From Shigella phage Z31: a stretch of DNA of 64,000 bases. The notes under the pieces are model-generated. The model worked only from the letters and a program-made list of their open reading frames with translations. It had not been told where the DNA came from and did not search any database. The position numbers and the translations under genes were made by a program. The stretch is taken from sequence record MN655999; one strand, written 5' to 3'. Shown here one piece after another: positions 48,509 to 54,020 of the stretch (positions within the stretch are counted from its first letter, which is position 1; every line of letters begins with the position of its first letter).

Positions 48509-48584
48509 TGGAGAATCCGAAGGGACTCGAACCCTTATAAACCTGTTTTGCAGACAGGCACATAGCCATTTCTGTCACGGATTC
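48509..48584 (-). tRNA. tRNA-Cys (anticodon GCA)
   Basis: Hand-folded cloverleaf: acceptor GAATCCG/CGGATTC, anticodon loop CTGCAAA, T-arm GGTTCGAGTCC, CCA encoded. Confidence 0.7.
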
Positions 48585-48588
48585 AAAT

Positions 48589-48681
48589 TGGAGGAAGATA
48601 CCAGACTTGAACTGGTACACCGATTTCTCAGCTACTGGCAGTTTAGCAAACTGCTCCCTTACCTTTTAGGGTTAATCTTCC
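48589..48681 (-). tRNA. tRNA-Ser (anticodon GCT), type II
   Basis: Acceptor GGAAGAT/ATCTTCC, anticodon loop TTGCTAA, long variable arm, T-arm CCAGTTCAAGTCTGG. Confidence 0.65.
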
Positions 48682-48682
48682 A

Positions 48683-49417
48683 TTATTTCTGTAATGCGTT
48701 CTTCATTTCTGGTGTTGCAATAGTGTCAATTACACCAGTTTTACAAGCATCATCAAACCAGTCTGGTAAGATACCTGCTAAGAACCCATTGATATTCGTT
48801 TTAAGGTACTCTGCAATAAGGGCAGCTTCTTCTTCAATCATCTGCACAACTTCATCTGCATAAGCTGTAATCTTCGAGATACCTTCATTAATCTTACTAA
48901 CAGCTTGGTTAGCTAAATCAGAAACAGTATCAAGACCTTTATCAATAGCATCTTGTAAGTCACTTAATACATCATTAACACCGTCTAGTGCACTGTTAAT
49001 TGTGTCAATAGCTTTTTGACCATACTCTGTAGCAACACCCATAATACCACTAAATGGTGTACAACCAACTTGCTCTCCTGCTGCACCCATAACATTGGAG
49101 TAGCCTTTTGCTACCTGCATACGTGAGGAAAACTCATCAATAGACTTTTGACCATAATCTGTCAATGTCTTAGTAGTTGATGTAGTGCTTGTCAGACTCG
49201 TTGTAAAGCTATTAAGCAGAACTGTTGTAAGTCCAGCAGCAATGAGCTTATCCTTCATTGTAGGGTCTGTTACAGAGCTAATAGAGCTTACAAGTGATGT
49301 AGAGGCAGCCACGGTTCCACCTAGAACTGCTGCACCAGTAATAAGGGGATTAGAAAACCCTCTACCGGTTTTTAAGAGATTAAAAATCTCCTTACCTTGT
49401 TCTGTCATCTCTTTCAT
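48683..49417 (-). CDS. Ser/Thr-rich protein encoded inside the tRNA island, unknown function
   Basis: ORF track 265 aa, start trimmed to MKEMTEQ just downstream of tRNA-Phe; stop 2 nt from tRNA-Ser 5' end. Confidence 0.5.
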   Translation of the reverse strand: MKEMTEQGKEIFNLLKTGRGFSNPLITGAAVLGGTVAASTSLVSSISSVTDPTMKDKLIAAGLTTVLLNSFTTSLTSTTSTTKTLTDYGQKSIDEFSSRMQVAKGYSNVMGAAGEQVGCTPFSGIMGVATEYGQKAIDTINSALDGVNDVLSDLQDAIDKGLDTVSDLANQAVSKINEGISKITAYADEVVQMIEEEAALIAEYLKTNINGFLAGILPDWFDDACKTGVIDTIATPEMKNALQK

Positions 49418-49433
49418 TAAGCACCTTTGAAAT

Positions 49434-49509
49434 TGGTAGTCCAGTGGGATTTGAACCCTCTTCTCATGTTTTTCAGACACGCGCTTTAACCATATAAGCT
49501 ACTTGGACT
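49434..49509 (-). tRNA. tRNA-Phe (anticodon GAA)
   Basis: T-arm GGGTTCAAATCCC, anticodon loop CTGAAAA, CCA encoded. Confidence 0.6.
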
Positions 49510-49515
49510 ATAAAT

Positions 49516-49591
49516 TGGGGTGACCTACGGGATTTGAACCCGTATAGACCATGTTCACAGCATGGGTCATTACCATTTATGATAAGGCCAC
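49516..49591 (-). tRNA. tRNA-His (anticodon GTG)
   Basis: Anticodon arm CCATG-CTGTGAA-CATGG, T-arm CGGGTTCAAATCCCG. Confidence 0.65.
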
Positions 49592-49622
49592 ATTTAAGGA
49601 CTCTCGTAAGAATCCTTAGAAG

Positions 49623-49698
49623 TGGCAGCGGCATAAGGATTTGAACCTTAATAAGACAGCTTCAGAGACTGCTGCATTGCCAGTTATGCTATACCGCT
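49623..49698 (-). tRNA. tRNA-Gln (anticodon CTG)
   Basis: Acceptor AGCGGTA/TGCCGCT, anticodon loop CTCTGAA (stem has two G-U pairs), T-arm AAGGTTCAAATCCTT. Confidence 0.55.
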
Positions 49699-49703
49699 AA
49701 ATT

Positions 49704-49782
49704 TGGTACTCCATATCGGATTCGAACCGATACATAACACAGATTTTAAGTCTGGCCTCTCTGCCAATTGGAGTAATGGAGC
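49704..49782 (-). tRNA. tRNA-like, anticodon TAA (Leu-decoding), short variable arm, imperfect D and anticodon stems
   Basis: Acceptor GCTCCAT/ATGGAGT, T-arm ATCGGTTCGAATCCGAT, loop CTTAAAA. Confidence 0.4.
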
Positions 49783-49784
49783 AT

Positions 49785-49860
49785 TGGCGGGGGATGTTGG
49801 AATTGAACCAACTTCTTCGATTTCAAAGACCGAGGTTTTAACCTTGTAAACTAATCCCCT
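49785..49860 (-). tRNA. tRNA-Gln (anticodon TTG)
   Basis: D-arm GTTT/AAAC, anticodon arm TCGGT-CTTTGAA-ATCGA, T-arm GTTGGTTCAATTCCAAC. Confidence 0.6.
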
Positions 49861-49868
49861 TTAAATCT

Positions 49869-50426
49869 TTATTTTCTTAGTGGATGAATAAAGAATGCCA
49901 ACATAACTCTTTCCCTTGAGAATGCTCTTTCTTCTGGGACAACACTTTTAAGTTTCCATCCAACATAAATTCTCCAGTAGAATTGTTTACCAAAGATTTT
50001 AATTGATGGTACAAAAGCGAATAATCCCCAAGCATTACTGTTCCACATTAGGAGATAACCTATCTGATTATCTTTAGGGTTAGAACTTACGTTGATATTA
50101 CCTTTCCACTTAGTAACATCTTTTACATCTCTTCCTAACACATGGTAAGAGAAGTTATAAGCTTTGTTTCTCCAGAGCCAACCGACTCTCTGCATATAGA
50201 TACCAAGCTTACCAATCTTTCTAATCTTAGCCCATCGTTTGACATGACCTTCATCACCATCAATCGGGTTGTCATAAGTTTCCATCCATCTAAATCCGAA
50301 AGGTAAGTGTCCTTTCTTCTCACTGTAAAATGGAACTACAAAAGGTGCTAAGATAACTGCTAAGATTGCTGCAAATGGCTCTAACAAAGCTAAGAAAATC
50401 CATGAAACATATTTTAGATATCTCAT
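49869..50426 (-). CDS. membrane protein encoded inside the tRNA island, unknown function
   Basis: ORF track 185 aa; N-terminal TM segment WIFLALLEPFAAILAVILAPFVV; Trp-rich. Confidence 0.5.
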   Translation of the reverse strand: MRYLKYVSWIFLALLEPFAAILAVILAPFVVPFYSEKKGHLPFGFRWMETYDNPIDGDEGHVKRWAKIRKIGKLGIYMQRVGWLWRNKAYNFSYHVLGRDVKDVTKWKGNINVSSNPKDNQIGYLLMWNSNAWGLFAFVPSIKIFGKQFYWRIYVGWKLKSVVPEERAFSRERVMLAFFIHPLRK

Positions 50427-52826: not shown

Positions 52827-52861
52827 CGTTGTTTATCATCTTAAGTGCTACCATTACACCA

Positions 52862-52895
52862 ACTCGACATCTGCCGAGTGAAGGAATCGAACCTT
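52862..52895 (-). other. tRNA-derived fragment: perfect T-arm (GAAGGTTCGATTCCTTC) plus 3' acceptor-like strand without a matching 5' half
   Basis: T-arm motif identical in style to neighbouring tRNAs but no D or anticodon arm upstream; followed by hairpin ACTCGGC-AGAT-GTCGAGT. Confidence 0.4.
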
Positions 52896-53131
52896 CGCCT
52901 ATTTCTTTACCGGAGAAATAGATTGTTTAAGTTTTGCTGTAAACGGTCTTCTGTAAATTTGTTGAGCCAGACCAAGTTTTAAATTTTTTCAAAATTAAAT
53001 TGGCTTGAAAATATCATACGTACTTGCTGAATTTGGTCTTCTGCTCCTTTAAAGAATACTCGTAAGAACTCTTTAAGGGAGGGGCTAAATAGCCCTCTCA
53101 AAACATCATCTTGAAATACTTATTATAATTT

Positions 53132-53208
53132 GGCGGTTACGAAGGGATTTGAACCCTCATCATCTCCCGTGACAGGGGAGTATTTTAACCAGTTAAACTA
53201 CATAACCT
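53132..53208 (-). tRNA. tRNA-Asp (anticodon GTC)
   Basis: Anticodon arm CTCCC-CTGTCAC-GGGAG, T-arm GAGGGTTCAAATCCCTT. Confidence 0.7.
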
Positions 53209-53214
53209 TTATTT

Positions 53215-53302
53215 GGTGTGCCGTGTAGGAGTCGAACCTACCGAGTCTCAATGACAAGGGATTTACAGTCCCCACCGCTACCATCTACGGGATAACGACA
53301 CA
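53215..53302 (-). tRNA. tRNA-Tyr (anticodon GTA), type II
   Basis: Anticodon arm GGGGA-CTGTAAA-TCCCT, long variable arm, T-arm GTAGGTTCGACTCCTAC. Confidence 0.65.
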
Positions 53303-53371
53303 TTTTATTTTCTATTCAGGCTAAGGACTTACACCTTACAAATCGGTGAGCAATCGCTTCTCTCCTAAATT

Positions 53372-53449
53372 TGGCGGTTAGTCAGGGATTCGAACCCTGT
53401 GCCATTCGCTTAACAGGCGACCGCACATACCTTATGTGCTTCCTAACCT
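53372..53449 (-). tRNA. tRNA-Asn (anticodon GTT)
   Basis: Loop CTGTTAA, T-arm CAGGGTTCGAATCCCTG. Confidence 0.6.
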
Positions 53450-53526
53450 TAATACATTGCCAGACCGTGTTTTTTCTTTTATCCGCAAAAAGTAGTTTGT
53501 TGCTGAATACGGTCTTCTGCAAAATT

Positions 53527-53603
53527 GGAGGCGGGTGCAGGAGTCGAACCTGCCGATACCATGCTAATGAGACATGTGAGACGCCCTTTCTCTATACCCG
53601 CAA
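53527..53603 (-). tRNA. tRNA with CAT anticodon (second copy: initiator Met or lysidine-type Ile2 candidate)
   Basis: Anticodon arm CATGT-CTCATTA-GCATG, D-arm GAGA/TCTC, T-arm GCAGGTTCGACTCCTGC. Confidence 0.6.
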
Positions 53604-53694
53604 TTCTTAATGACCAGACCAAATCTCTTCTTTGTCCGATTTATCTTCAGATGAATAAGATTAAGTTTGCTGTAATTGGTCTTCTGTCAAAACT

Positions 53695-53772
53695 GGCGTT
53701 CCAGAAGGGATTTGAACCCTCAAATATCCACTTTGAAAGAGTGGTGACTATACCATTTTGTCTACTGGAACA
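53695..53772 (-). tRNA. tRNA-Glu (anticodon TTC)
   Basis: Acceptor GTTCCAG/CTGGAAC, anticodon arm CCACT-CTTTCAA-AGTGG, T-arm GAGGGTTCAAATCCCTT. Confidence 0.7.
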
Positions 53773-53779
53773 TTAATTT

Positions 53780-53856
53780 GGTCTCTGTTGGAGGACTTGA
53801 ACCTCCGGCCTTACCGCCCCAAACGGAACGCTCTACCAAGCTGAGCTAAACAGAGA
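53780..53856 (-). tRNA. tRNA-Pro (anticodon TGG)
   Basis: D-arm GCTCAGCTTGGTAGAGC, loop TTTGGGG, T-arm GGAGGTTCAAGTCCTCC. Confidence 0.65.
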
Positions 53857-53973
53857 TAAACTTTTCAAACTCTATGTAACCACTTTAACATTATTTTTTA
53901 GTGGTTGTCAAGAACTTTTTTAAAATATTTTTCAGTATCTTAGAAAAGCTCTCATTTCGTTTCTATGTAGAAC

Positions 53974-54002
53974 ATATTAAAGGGTATCAAACGCATTGTC
54001 AA
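53974..54002 (-). promoter_or_regulatory. sigma70-type promoter TTGACA-17-TAATAT heading the tRNA island, embedded in a hairpin
   Basis: Consensus -35 and good -10 on minus strand between vWA gene stop and tRNA-Pro; overlaps AAAGGGTAT...ATACCCTTT inverted repeat. Confidence 0.5.
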
Positions 54003-54020
54003 TACCCTTTTTAAAACTTT

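What the first reader, a model, noticed from the sequence alone, without database searches (positions are those of the whole stretch)
48509..54003. tRNA island is a mosaic of several transcription units with embedded protein genes, not a simple array
About 27 tRNA genes on the minus strand are interrupted by a consensus promoter at the head (53974-54002), an internal promoter (52395-52423), an internal terminator (51608-51631), three protein-coding genes (48683-50665) and long structured spacers. This suggests differential expression of tRNA subsets and co-expressed accessory functions, rather than one polycistronic tRNA precursor.
Basis: partly seen in the sequence, partly recalled or inferred. 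Interest (0 to 1): 0.6.

Follow-up and report, generated by a model that had tools for sequence, protein, structure and literature searches.

The report
Y-RNA-like modules inside phage tRNA island
The "long structured spacers" in this Felix O1-type phage's tRNA cluster are not filler: several are conserved small RNAs, one a tRNA mimic, of a family that sits beside a Ro60-like RNA-binding protein gene in many unrelated phages.

Summary
The window comes from a Felixounavirus (Felix O1-like phage). There are 26 tRNA genes on the minus strand, two conserved tandem promoters at the head, one conserved internal promoter, three embedded ORFs and long spacers. The proposed internal terminator is only a weak hairpin. 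This layout, including the internal promoter, was already published for Felix O1, so the finding as written is ordinary.

The spacers are the more interesting part. Between tRNA-Glu and tRNA-Lys lie four copies of one RNA module: an outer helix, a 3-nt purine bulge, an inner helix, then CAGCAA. The fourth copy carries a circularly permuted tRNA-like domain (variable arm, T arm, closed acceptor stem, D arm), the same order as bacterial YrlA Y RNAs.

The gene directly upstream (DUF2828 plus vWA) has a predicted Ro60 fold. Covariance models built from these modules find the same RNA beside DUF2828 genes in distant phages of enterobacteria, Bacillus and mycobacteria. All 69 hits are on the gene's strand, and 686 kb of control DNA gave none.

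Best explanation: these are Y-RNA-like partners of a phage Ro60-like protein, released from the tRNA precursor by tRNA-processing enzymes. Binding and function are inferred. Two papers had speculated that such RNAs exist; neither identified them.

The parts
54021..55436 (-). Gene for a 471-aa Ro60-like protein (DUF2828 + DUF7788/vWA), directly upstream of the tRNA island on the same strand
   Evidence: Pfam gives DUF2828 at 2.9e-29 and DUF7788 at 3.7e-43, with no TROVE hit. PHROG 850 is named 'RNA-binding protein'. The AlphaFold2 model has pLDDT 88. The 12 best Foldseek PDB matches are all Ro60/TROVE structures, full length, E about 1e-8, mostly TM 0.5-0.65 (2nvo 0.37). The MIDAS residues D279, S281 and S283 are invariant in 45 homologs.
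53974..54002 (-). Head promoter P1 (TTGACA-17-TAATAT), embedded in a 12-bp inverted repeat at 54010-53979
   Evidence: Found. The -35 hexamer is invariant in 7 relatives. The hairpin folds at -12.6 kcal/mol, z -4.7.
53882..53911 (-). Head promoter P2 (TTGACA-18-TAAAGT with extended -10 TG), about 27 nt upstream of tRNA-Pro
   Evidence: Found and conserved in 7 relatives.
53611..53689 (-). Module U1: simple CAGCAA stem RNA between tRNA-Glu and tRNA-Met (UGAC / AGA / AGACCAA-UUA-CAGCAA ... UUGGUCU / G / GUCA)
   Evidence: R2 covariance model scores 45.1 bits, E 3.5e-7.
53457..53522 (-). Module U2: simple CAGCAA stem RNA between tRNA-Met and tRNA-Asn
   Evidence: R2 scores 46.8 bits. The outer helix switches from UUGC/GCAA to UUAC/GUAA between phages.
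52964..53046 (-). Module U3: simple CAGCAA stem RNA
   Evidence: R2 scores 33.0 bits, E 3e-4.
52818..52956 (-). Module U4: the same stem and CAGCAA motif enclosing a permuted tRNA-like domain. It has a long variable-arm hairpin, the T arm GAAGG-UUCGAUU-CCUUC, a 7-bp acceptor stem closed by a loop, and a D arm with A14, G18G19 and A21.
   Evidence: Folds at -38.1 kcal/mol, z -3.15. The closed acceptor stem covaries in relatives. R2 scores 120 bits. Rfam gives only a partial tRNA hit of 20 bits.
52680..52815 (-). Element U5: a closed multi-hairpin RNA containing a minimal helix-UUA-AGCAA hairpin (CAGACC-UUAAGCAA-GUCUGG)
   Evidence: Folds at -44.4 kcal/mol, z -5.0. The hairpin stem covaries (CAGUCC/GACUGG, CAAACC/GGUUUG, CUGUUCC/GAACGGG) while the AGCAA loop is kept. 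This element was not caught by R2.
52394..52422 (-). Internal promoter (TTGACA-17-TATAGT), equivalent to Felix O1 P45
   Evidence: Found. TTGACA is present in all 10 relatives examined. Published as P45 in PMC3185647.
52191..52390 (-). S1: a conserved structured RNA of about 200 nt between the internal promoter and tRNA-Arg(UCU); function unknown
   Evidence: Nearly invariant in 10 relatives. One hairpin has three compensatory pairs.
51608..51631 (-).
   Evidence: Not listed by the scan. Folds at -8.7 kcal/mol. Conserved with G-U variants.
48509..53855 (-). tRNA island: 26 tRNA genes for 19 amino acids, with Trp missing
48329..48346 (-). Intrinsic terminator after the last tRNA gene (GACGGU-loop-ACCGUC followed by U6)
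   Evidence: z -4.3.
48683..50665 (-). Three conserved ORFs of unknown function (DUF7217 at 48683-49417, DUF7338 at 49869-50426, an 80-aa ORF at 50423-50665), with five tRNA genes between the first and second

Best explanation
The island is a composite non-coding RNA locus. Host sigma-70 RNA polymerase starts at conserved promoters: two at the head and one after tRNA-Ile. The resulting precursors carry tRNAs interleaved with self-contained stem-loop RNAs.

Four of these RNAs (U1-U4, probably also U5) belong to one family. Its members share a terminal helix, a 3-nt purine bulge opposite a single G or A, a 6-8-bp inner helix, and the single-stranded motif CAGCAA 2-5 nt further on. The apical part is variable. 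In U4 it is a permuted tRNA mimic with the YrlA domain order.

Each module starts 3-4 nt after the 3' end of a tRNA and ends 8 nt before the next tRNA. RNase P and the 3'-end tRNA-processing enzymes would therefore release the modules as discrete RNAs of roughly 70-140 nt with paired ends.

I infer that these RNAs are the Y-RNA-like ligands of the Ro60-like protein encoded immediately upstream. The bulged helix plus CAGCAA would be the protein-binding site, and the apical or tRNA-like part the effector module. The resulting RNP would act on RNA metabolism during infection, for example tRNA surveillance or repair, recruitment of a host exonuclease, or countering a host defence.

Shown here: the RNA family, its structure, its conservation, and its strand-specific linkage to the gene. 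Inferred: processing, protein binding and function.
For: - Repeats: four exact copies of CAGAAGACC-N5-CAGCAA lie within 760 nt on the minus strand. All four fold the same way.
- Stem covariation: across 27 distinct stems from relatives, 100% of 297 cells pair, against 21-44% when the partners are slid. Five of 11 pairs show compensatory changes. The G-U variants fit only the minus-strand RNA.
- U4: the closed acceptor stem covaries (ACUCGGC/GUCGAGU, ACCCUUC/GAAGGGU, ACACG/CGUGU) while the T and D arms stay invariant.
- Distant phages keep the architecture and CAGCAA but use different helix sequences. Examples are a Yersinia phage, two metagenomic relatives, mycobacteriophage Itos, Klebsiella phage FBKp34, Listeria phage AG20 and Bacillus phage vB_BcoS-136.
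- A covariance model built only from Felix/Moogle U4 finds full-length matches in loci whose protein is 33-56% identical.
- In the resulting 33-sequence alignment, 94% of 793 cells pair (37-42% when slid), and 31 of 33 pairs have compensatory changes.
- The second model gives 69 hits at E<=0.01, every one on the strand of the DUF2828 gene.
- 32 of 75 distant loci have a hit, 24 of them within 400 nt of the gene. Nine of the 32 loci have no tRNA gene at all.
- The same model gives no hits in 686 kb of unrelated viral DNA and hits none of the window's 26 tRNAs.
- The protein's predicted fold is Ro60, and its mycobacteriophage homologs are annotated 'Ro-like RNA binding protein'.
- Literature: in the Felixounavirus Bas63 the orthologous gp130 is Ro60-like and counters the ppl defence, and the authors guessed that some 'tRNAs' might be Y RNAs (PMC11482910). 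In Listeria phage CKA15, three highly abundant transcripts lie within 2 kb upstream of the homolog (PMC12282133). This matches the three modules I find at that position in the related phage AG20.
Against: - There is no direct evidence that the protein binds these RNAs, that they are processed out, or that they accumulate in this phage.
- The module lacks the motif that characterises known Ro60 ligands (GNCGAAN0-1G or CGAA near the 5' end). It also scores nothing against Rfam YrlA or Y_RNA.
- The protein does not match Pfam TROVE.
- The 33-sequence covariation count was made on an alignment fitted to the model, which inflates pairing.
- Only 32 of 75 distant DUF2828 loci gave a hit, so the partnership is either not universal or not detectable with these models.
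- Hairpins between tRNAs could serve precursor processing on their own.
Confidence: 0.62

Rival explanations
1. The modules are processing or insulation elements of the tRNA precursor. In this view they are spacer hairpins that guide RNase E, RNase III or RNase P cleavage, or stop neighbouring tRNAs from misfolding. They would have no life of their own and no link to the Ro60-like protein.
For: They sit flush between tRNAs, 3-8 nt from each neighbour. Every long spacer in the island folds into a closed stem-loop, including those without the CAGCAA motif.
Against: The same module lies next to DUF2828 genes in nine loci that hold no tRNA gene. It also occurs directly after the gene in mycobacteriophage Itos, with no tRNA annotated or detected by Rfam in the 5.4-kb locus. 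A purely structural spacer would not need an invariant single-stranded CAGCAA from Listeria phages to mycobacteriophages, nor an intact tRNA elbow (T and D arms) in U4.
Confidence: 0.15
2. U4 and its relatives are decayed tRNA pseudogenes, and the repeated motif is a remnant of duplications or of homing-endonuclease traffic in a recombination hot spot.
For: Relatives carry HNH endonuclease genes at various inter-tRNA sites. Pseudo-tRNAs are reported in Felix O1. The window has two lineage-specific inserts.
Against: The domain order is permuted (variable arm, T arm, closed acceptor, D arm), which decay of a tRNA gene does not produce. The acceptor stem is kept by compensatory changes, and 31 of 33 model pairs covary across phages of different phyla. 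That is purifying selection on structure, not decay.
Confidence: 0.04
3. One reading: the island is mainly a set of separately regulated transcription units. The spacers serve as promoters, terminators and regulatory leaders that give different tRNA subsets different timing.
For: The head and internal promoters are conserved. A conserved 200-nt leader follows the internal promoter. There is a terminator at the tail.
Against: The scan predicts no internal terminator, and the proposed one is weak. U1-U5 contain no promoter or terminator consensus. This model is compatible with the main explanation but does not account for the RNA family or its linkage to the Ro60-like gene.
Confidence: 0.15

Closest known systems
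YrlA / YrlB, the bacterial Y RNAs bound by the Ro60 ortholog Rsr (Chen et al. 2014, PMC4201824; Rfam RF02553)
   Same: - Encoded within about 1-2 kb of, and on the same strand as, a Ro60-fold protein.
- The 5' and 3' ends pair into a stem with a conserved motif on the 5' side.
- One member (U4, like YrlA) carries a tRNA mimic with the identical order: variable arm, T arm, closed acceptor stem, D arm.
- Other members (U1-U3, like YrlB) have the stem without the tRNA mimic.
- YrlA-type RNAs were also reported beside Ro60 genes in some phages.
   Different: - The conserved motif is a bulged helix plus CAGCAA, not GNCGAAN0-1G.
- There is no Rfam YrlA hit in the window even at E<=10, and only sub-threshold hits (29-39 bits against a cut-off of 69) for related modules elsewhere.
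- The partner protein is DUF2828, not a Pfam TROVE protein.
- The RNAs are embedded in a tRNA array and are multi-copy (4-5 per genome).
Yrl1 / Yrl2 of Thermus phage phiLo with phage Ro60 (PMC12135203; PDB 9L5Y, 9KOP)
   Same: A phage-encoded Ro60-fold protein has two adjacent Y-like RNAs, shown to bind each other and host PNPase. The phiLo protein is among the top structural matches of the window's protein.
   Different: The phiLo RNAs were identified by a CGAA motif in an internal bulge and lie upstream of the gene, not in a tRNA array. The phiLo paper does not mention DUF2828, and I did not test which Pfam families the phiLo protein matches.
Stable small RNAs encoded within phage tRNA clusters, such as T4 species 1 and 2 RNAs (from my own knowledge, not checked here)
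   Same: Non-tRNA stable RNAs are co-transcribed with phage tRNAs and released by the tRNA-processing machinery.
   Different: I know of no associated Ro60-like protein or shared CAGCAA stem motif for them. I did not test T4.
Felix O1 tRNA region as published (Whichard et al. 2010, PMC3185647)
   Same: Same locus: tRNAs in groups separated by ORFs, the internal promoter P45, and pseudo-tRNA calls.
   Different: The spacers were not analysed there, and the upstream gene was a hypothetical protein.

Membership tests
Ro60 / TROVE proteins (for the gene at 54021-55436) | [quoted passage not shown] | tested here: met
   The AF2 model (pLDDT 88, pTM 0.88) is all-helical to about residue 264, then alpha/beta. 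The top 12 Foldseek PDB hits are Ro60 structures aligned over about 520-550 columns, mostly with TM 0.5-0.65.
Ro60 / TROVE proteins (for the gene at 54021-55436) | MIDAS motif (DxSxS) in the vWA domain | tested here: met
   D279, S281 and S283 are invariant in the 45-sequence alignment.
Ro60 / TROVE proteins (for the gene at 54021-55436) | Sequence match to Pfam TROVE (PF05731) or to solved Ro60 sequences | tested here: not met
   Pfam returns only DUF2828, DUF7788 and a weak VWA_2 hit. Neither phmmer nor a profile search against PDB sequences finds Ro60.
Ro60 / TROVE proteins (for the gene at 54021-55436) | Binds Y RNA or misfolded RNA | not testable with these tools
   Needs a binding assay or RIP.
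YrlA (Rfam RF02553) | Score at or above the Rfam gathering threshold (69 bits) | tested here: not met
   No YrlA hit in the window at E<=1 over 9 kb or at E<=10 over 451 nt.
YrlA (Rfam RF02553) | GNCGAAN0-1G motif near the 5' end | tested here: not met
   Absent from U1-U3 and U5. The only match in U4 is GGCGAAGG at the start of the T arm, not near the 5' end.
YrlA (Rfam RF02553) | tRNA-like domain in the order V arm, T arm, closed acceptor stem, D arm, with conserved T-loop and D-loop nucleotides | tested here: met
   U4 has the T loop UUCGAUU, a D loop with A14, G18G19 and A21, and a 7-bp closed acceptor stem that covaries.
YrlA (Rfam RF02553) | Encoded within about 4 kb of a Ro60 ortholog on the same strand | tested here: met
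   U1-U5 lie 0.3-1.3 kb downstream of the gene on the same strand.
Canonical tRNA (for U4) | Called by ARAGORN, or Rfam tRNA score at or above 29 bits, with free acceptor ends and an anticodon arm | tested here: not met
   Not called even with relaxed ARAGORN settings. Rfam tRNA gives 20 bits, partial. The acceptor stem is closed by a loop.
Rho-independent terminator (for 51608-51631) | G+C-rich stem followed by a U tract | tested here: inconclusive
   Not reported by the scan. The 8-bp stem has 3 G-C pairs, folds at -8.7 kcal/mol, and leaves only 2 U beyond the stem.

The most novel reading that the evidence does not exclude
DUF2828 proteins and 'CAGCAA-stem' RNAs form a widespread, so far undefined phage ribonucleoprotein system. 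It would be a second lineage of Ro60/Y-RNA-like particles with its own RNA recognition code. It is found in phages of Proteobacteria, Firmicutes and Actinobacteria, is often built into tRNA arrays so that tRNA-processing enzymes manufacture its RNA subunits, and includes a tRNA-mimic variant. In Felix O1-like phages this RNP, rather than the protein alone, would be what counters the host ppl defence or protects the tRNA pool.
Probability: 0.4. Interest if true: 0.75.

Novelty: new variant of a known kind. Interest (0 to 1): 0.58.

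Why it matters
Ro60 and its Y RNAs are conserved from bacteria to humans, yet their function is still poorly understood. Phage versions are only beginning to be studied. Two recent papers, one on a Felix O1-like phage and one on a Listeria phage, guessed that the DUF2828 protein should have Y-RNA partners but could not name them.

This analysis supplies concrete candidates with coordinates, a consensus motif, a covariation-supported structure and two working covariance models. The hypothesis becomes directly testable by RIP, gel shift or deletion in Bas63 or Felix O1. 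It also matters for annotation. These elements are currently unannotated in some records. In others they are annotated as hypothetical ORFs on the wrong strand.

If the RNP underlies the reported anti-ppl activity, it would be an example of an RNA-protein anti-defence device made by the tRNA-processing pathway.

Tried and rejected
- Rfam gave no Y_RNA or YrlA hit in the window. The weak tmRNA, tmRNA_permuted and MIR473 hits are far below threshold and overlap a tRNA or a long hairpin, so I treated them as chance.
- ARAGORN in intron or relaxed mode did not turn U4 into a tRNA. Its tmRNA call is spurious.
- Sequence searches of the protein against PDB sequences, singly and as a profile, found nothing useful. 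Only the fold comparison worked.
- A scan of viral contigs for the exact 15-base motif mostly returned single chance matches. Only Felix O1-like contigs had 2-4 copies. Those chance loci later served as a negative control.
- A hand-written descriptor requiring the exact Felix geometry found little in distant loci, because bulge and helix lengths vary. The covariance models were needed.
- DUF5681, the gene upstream of the Ro60-like gene, was tested as a possible third partner. It is adjacent only in the Felix O1-like lineage (6 of 80 loci), so I rejected it as a general component.
- I looked for transcriptome data on Felixounavirus and found none. The two Wolin-lab reviews on bacterial Y RNAs could not be read, and the supplementary phage list of Chen et al. 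2014 is not held. I therefore cannot exclude that some DUF2828 phages were already in their YrlA set.

Full report
**Identity of the window**

The 5.7-kb region matches 348 phage records, at up to 98% identity for the closest. These include Felixounavirus and related phages, among them Felix O1 itself. Annotated relatives show the same order: terminase, a small ORF, the tRNA island with three ORFs, then a 'DUF2828 / RNA-binding / vWFA' protein and a DUF5681 protein.

**Check of the observation**

- ARAGORN finds 26 tRNA genes, all on the minus strand, from 48509 to 53855. Rfam agrees. They cover 19 amino acids, and Trp is missing.
- It also returns a second head promoter at 53911-53882 with an extended -10.
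- The number of promoter-like sites is no higher than in shuffles, so the scan alone proves little.
- However, the -35 hexamers of all three are invariant across Felixounavirus, Mooglevirus, Suspvirus and a relative whose protein is 63% identical.
- Comparable tandem promoters follow the DUF2828 gene in relatives at 48-56% protein identity.
- The 'internal terminator' at 51608-51631 is not reported by the scan. It is a conserved 8-bp hairpin of -8.7 kcal/mol with only two U residues beyond the stem.
- A good intrinsic terminator lies after the last tRNA, at 48346-48329.
- The three ORFs are conserved phage families of unknown function.
- The grouped tRNA layout and the internal promoter (P45) were already described for Felix O1 in 2010 (PMC3185647). 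As written, the finding is therefore correct in most details but not new.

**The spacers**

Reading the minus strand between tRNA-Glu and tRNA-Lys shows four exact copies of CAGAAGACC-N5-CAGCAA. Each is followed 45-120 nt later by GGUCUGG.

All four fold alike:
- a 4-bp outer helix whose sequence differs between copies but stays complementary;
- a bulge of AGA opposite a single G;
- a 7-8-bp inner helix (AGACCNN/NNGGUCU);
- CAGCAA three nucleotides beyond the helix.

The fourth copy (U4, 52956-52818; -38.1 kcal/mol, z -3.15) encloses these elements:
- a long hairpin;
- a T arm (GAAGG-UUCGAUU-CCUUC);
- a 7-bp acceptor-like stem closed by a tetraloop;
- a D arm with A14, G18G19 and A21.

This is the domain order reported for the tRNA-like part of bacterial YrlA Y RNAs: variable arm, T arm, acceptor stem, D arm (PMC4201824).

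A fifth element (U5, 52815-52680, z -5.0) contains a minimal version, CAGACC-UUAAGCAA-GUCUGG.

The modules begin 3-4 nt after one tRNA and end 8 nt before the next.

**Comparative test within the subfamily**

I extracted 58 distinct module sequences from Felixounavirus, Mooglevirus, Suspvirus and metagenomic relatives. They reduce to 27 distinct stems.
- All 297 base-pair cells form standard pairs, against 21-44% when the partner strand is slid by 1-3 columns.
- Five of 11 pairs show compensatory double changes.
- The single-sided changes are G-U wobbles that work only on the minus-strand RNA.
- In U4 the closed acceptor stem is ACUCGGC/GUCGAGU here, ACCCUUC/GAAGGGU in Moogle and ACACG/CGUGU in Sf14, while the T and D arms are invariant.

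**The neighbouring protein**

The 471-aa product of 54021-55436 matches Pfam DUF2828 and DUF7788 but not TROVE. It has no detectable sequence similarity to solved structures.

An AlphaFold2 model built from 45 homologs is confident (pLDDT 88, pTM 0.88). Its 12 best PDB matches are all Ro60 structures: Xenopus Ro60, Deinococcus Rsr and Thermus phage phiLo Ro60. They align over the full length at E about 1e-8, mostly with TM 0.5-0.65. The vWA MIDAS residues are invariant.

By tblastn the family is present in 709 phage records from very different hosts. The mycobacteriophage members, about 33% identical, are annotated 'Ro-like RNA binding protein'.

**Linkage in distant phages**

In 80 IMG/VR loci that encode a DUF2828 homolog:
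- every ARAGORN tRNA within 6 kb is on the gene's strand;
- all 55 orphan T-arm motifs are on that strand and none on the other.

Inspection of relatives at 33-56% protein identity shows the same architecture with different helix sequences and the same CAGCAA:

| Phage | Inner helix or module |
|---|---|
| Yersinia phage P778 | GGACUGU/ACAGUCC |
| Metagenomic relative L207 | AGUAUC/GAUACU |
| Metagenomic relative L128 | AGAGCAC/GUGCUCU |
| Mycobacteriophage Itos | three modules directly after the Ro-like gene (GUGGACGC-UAA-CAGCAA...GCGUCCAG and two others) |
| Listeria phage AG20 | three modules directly before the gene |
| Klebsiella phage FBKp34 | three modules between the gene and the first tRNA |

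**Covariance models**

It recovered full-length matches in these and other loci, for example 74.5 bits in L207 and 40.6 bits in Itos.
- On the 33-sequence alignment of hits, 94.2% of 793 cells pair (37-42% when slid) and 31 of 33 pairs show compensatory changes. The caveat is that this alignment was fitted to the model.
- A second model built from that alignment gives 69 hits at E<=0.01. All are on the DUF2828 strand. They include U1-U4 in the window and none of its 26 tRNAs.
- 32 of 75 distant loci have a hit, 24 of them within 400 nt of the gene. Nine of the 32 loci contain no tRNA gene.
- The same model finds nothing in 686 kb of unrelated viral DNA.
- It finds strong matches in Bacillus phage vB_BcoS-136 (76 bits) and Klebsiella phage FBKp34 (75 bits).

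**Relation to known families**

Rfam does contain YrlA (RF02553, gathering score 69). It gives only sub-threshold hits (29-39 bits) to a few of the distant modules, and none to the window or to Itos. The YrlA 5' motif GNCGAAN0-1G is absent.

These RNAs therefore work like YrlA and YrlB in architecture, gene linkage and tRNA mimicry. They fail the sequence-based membership tests and have a different conserved motif and a different protein family as neighbour. I file them as a new variant of the Ro60/Y-RNA kind.

**Prior art**

- The PhageMaP preprint found that Bas63 gp130, the ortholog in a Felixounavirus, has a Ro60-like structure, lies upstream of the tRNAs and counters the ppl defence. It suggested that 'some tRNA genes are possibly Y RNAs' (PMC11482910).
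- A multi-omics study of Listeria phage CKA15 saw three very abundant transcripts within 2 kb upstream of the homolog and offered Y RNAs as one possible explanation (PMC12282133).
- Neither paper identified the RNAs. The three modules I find upstream of the gene in the related phage AG20 fit that transcript evidence.
- I could not read the supplementary phage list of Chen et al. 2014 or two reviews, so some overlap with earlier YrlA predictions cannot be excluded.

**Mechanism**

Shown:
- a conserved, structured, strand-specific RNA family tightly linked to a Ro60-fold gene;
- conserved promoters;
- placement flush between tRNAs.

Inferred:
- release by RNase P and 3'-end processing;
- binding of the bulged helix plus CAGCAA by the Ro60-like protein;
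- an effector role for the apical or tRNA-like part in RNA surveillance, repair or anti-defence.

Listeria phage AG20 also encodes an RtcB-type ligase 1.2 kb downstream of the gene. This echoes the bacterial rsr-yrlBA-rtcBA operon (named in my own recollection; PMC7790460 concerns that RNA repair operon).

**Verdict**

Its interpretation is partly supported. The real content of the 'structured spacers' is a Y-RNA-like gene family that makes a recent speculation concrete and testable.

Noticed in passing
window 51889-51976 (-): An atypical tRNA-like sequence with a Trp anticodon loop (CUCCAAA), a long acceptor stem (about 8-10 bp) followed by GCCA, and an enlarged D region. ARAGORN default and Rfam do not call it. 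It is conserved in relatives, with a compensatory change in the anticodon stem in one phage. Trp is the only amino acid missing from the 26 called tRNAs.
   Followed up: partly
window 52191-52390 (-): A nearly invariant structured RNA of about 200 nt runs from the internal promoter to tRNA-Arg(UCU). One hairpin shows three compensatory pairs between phages. Its function is unknown. Some records annotate a 46-aa ORF on the opposite strand here.
   Followed up: partly
window 54010-53979 and 53905-53876 (-); also L207, L208, L128, L215: The head promoters each sit inside an inverted repeat whose arm sequences differ between phages but remain complementary. This suggests a conserved hairpin or operator overlapping the -35 and -10 elements.
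   Followed up: partly
window 51531-51600 (-): A long covarying hairpin (z -4.4) carries a conserved apical UUGUUGCU. This is complementary to the AGCAACAA part of the module motif and could be an antisense partner or a coincidence.
   Followed up: no
window 53302-53371 and 50760-50873 (-): Two inserts absent from most relatives share the 5' sequence UUUAGGAGAG and fold as closed stem-loops. The second has AGGAG-N7-AUG and a short open frame. Relatives carry HNH homing endonuclease genes at various inter-tRNA positions, so the island is a hot spot for mobile insertions.
   Followed up: partly
window 51028-51122 (-): The 95-nt spacer between tRNA-Val and tRNA-Thr folds as a closed stem-loop (z -2.9). 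It contains GAAGACCGU-AACAAA, a degenerate-looking version of the module's 5' motif. It was not hit by the covariance models.
   Followed up: no
L218 (Listeria phage AG20) 2616-2889 and 5713-7020: Three tandem CAGCAA modules follow a promoter just upstream of the DUF2828 gene. An RtcB-type 'tRNA splicing ligase' lies 1.2 kb downstream, echoing the bacterial rsr-yrl-rtcBA arrangement.
   Followed up: partly
L001 (phage pEP20) insertion after the internal promoter; L143 5699-5763: A 90-nt insertion in pEP20 ends in ACAUAUUCUGAAUAG. It resembles a module subtype seen in a distant phage (…ACAUUCUGAAUAGG), which suggests that the modules themselves move or duplicate.
   Followed up: no
window 55518-55889 (-): A DUF5681 gene precedes the Ro60-like gene. 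This adjacency is confined to the Felix O1-like lineage (6 of 80 DUF2828 loci).
   Followed up: yes
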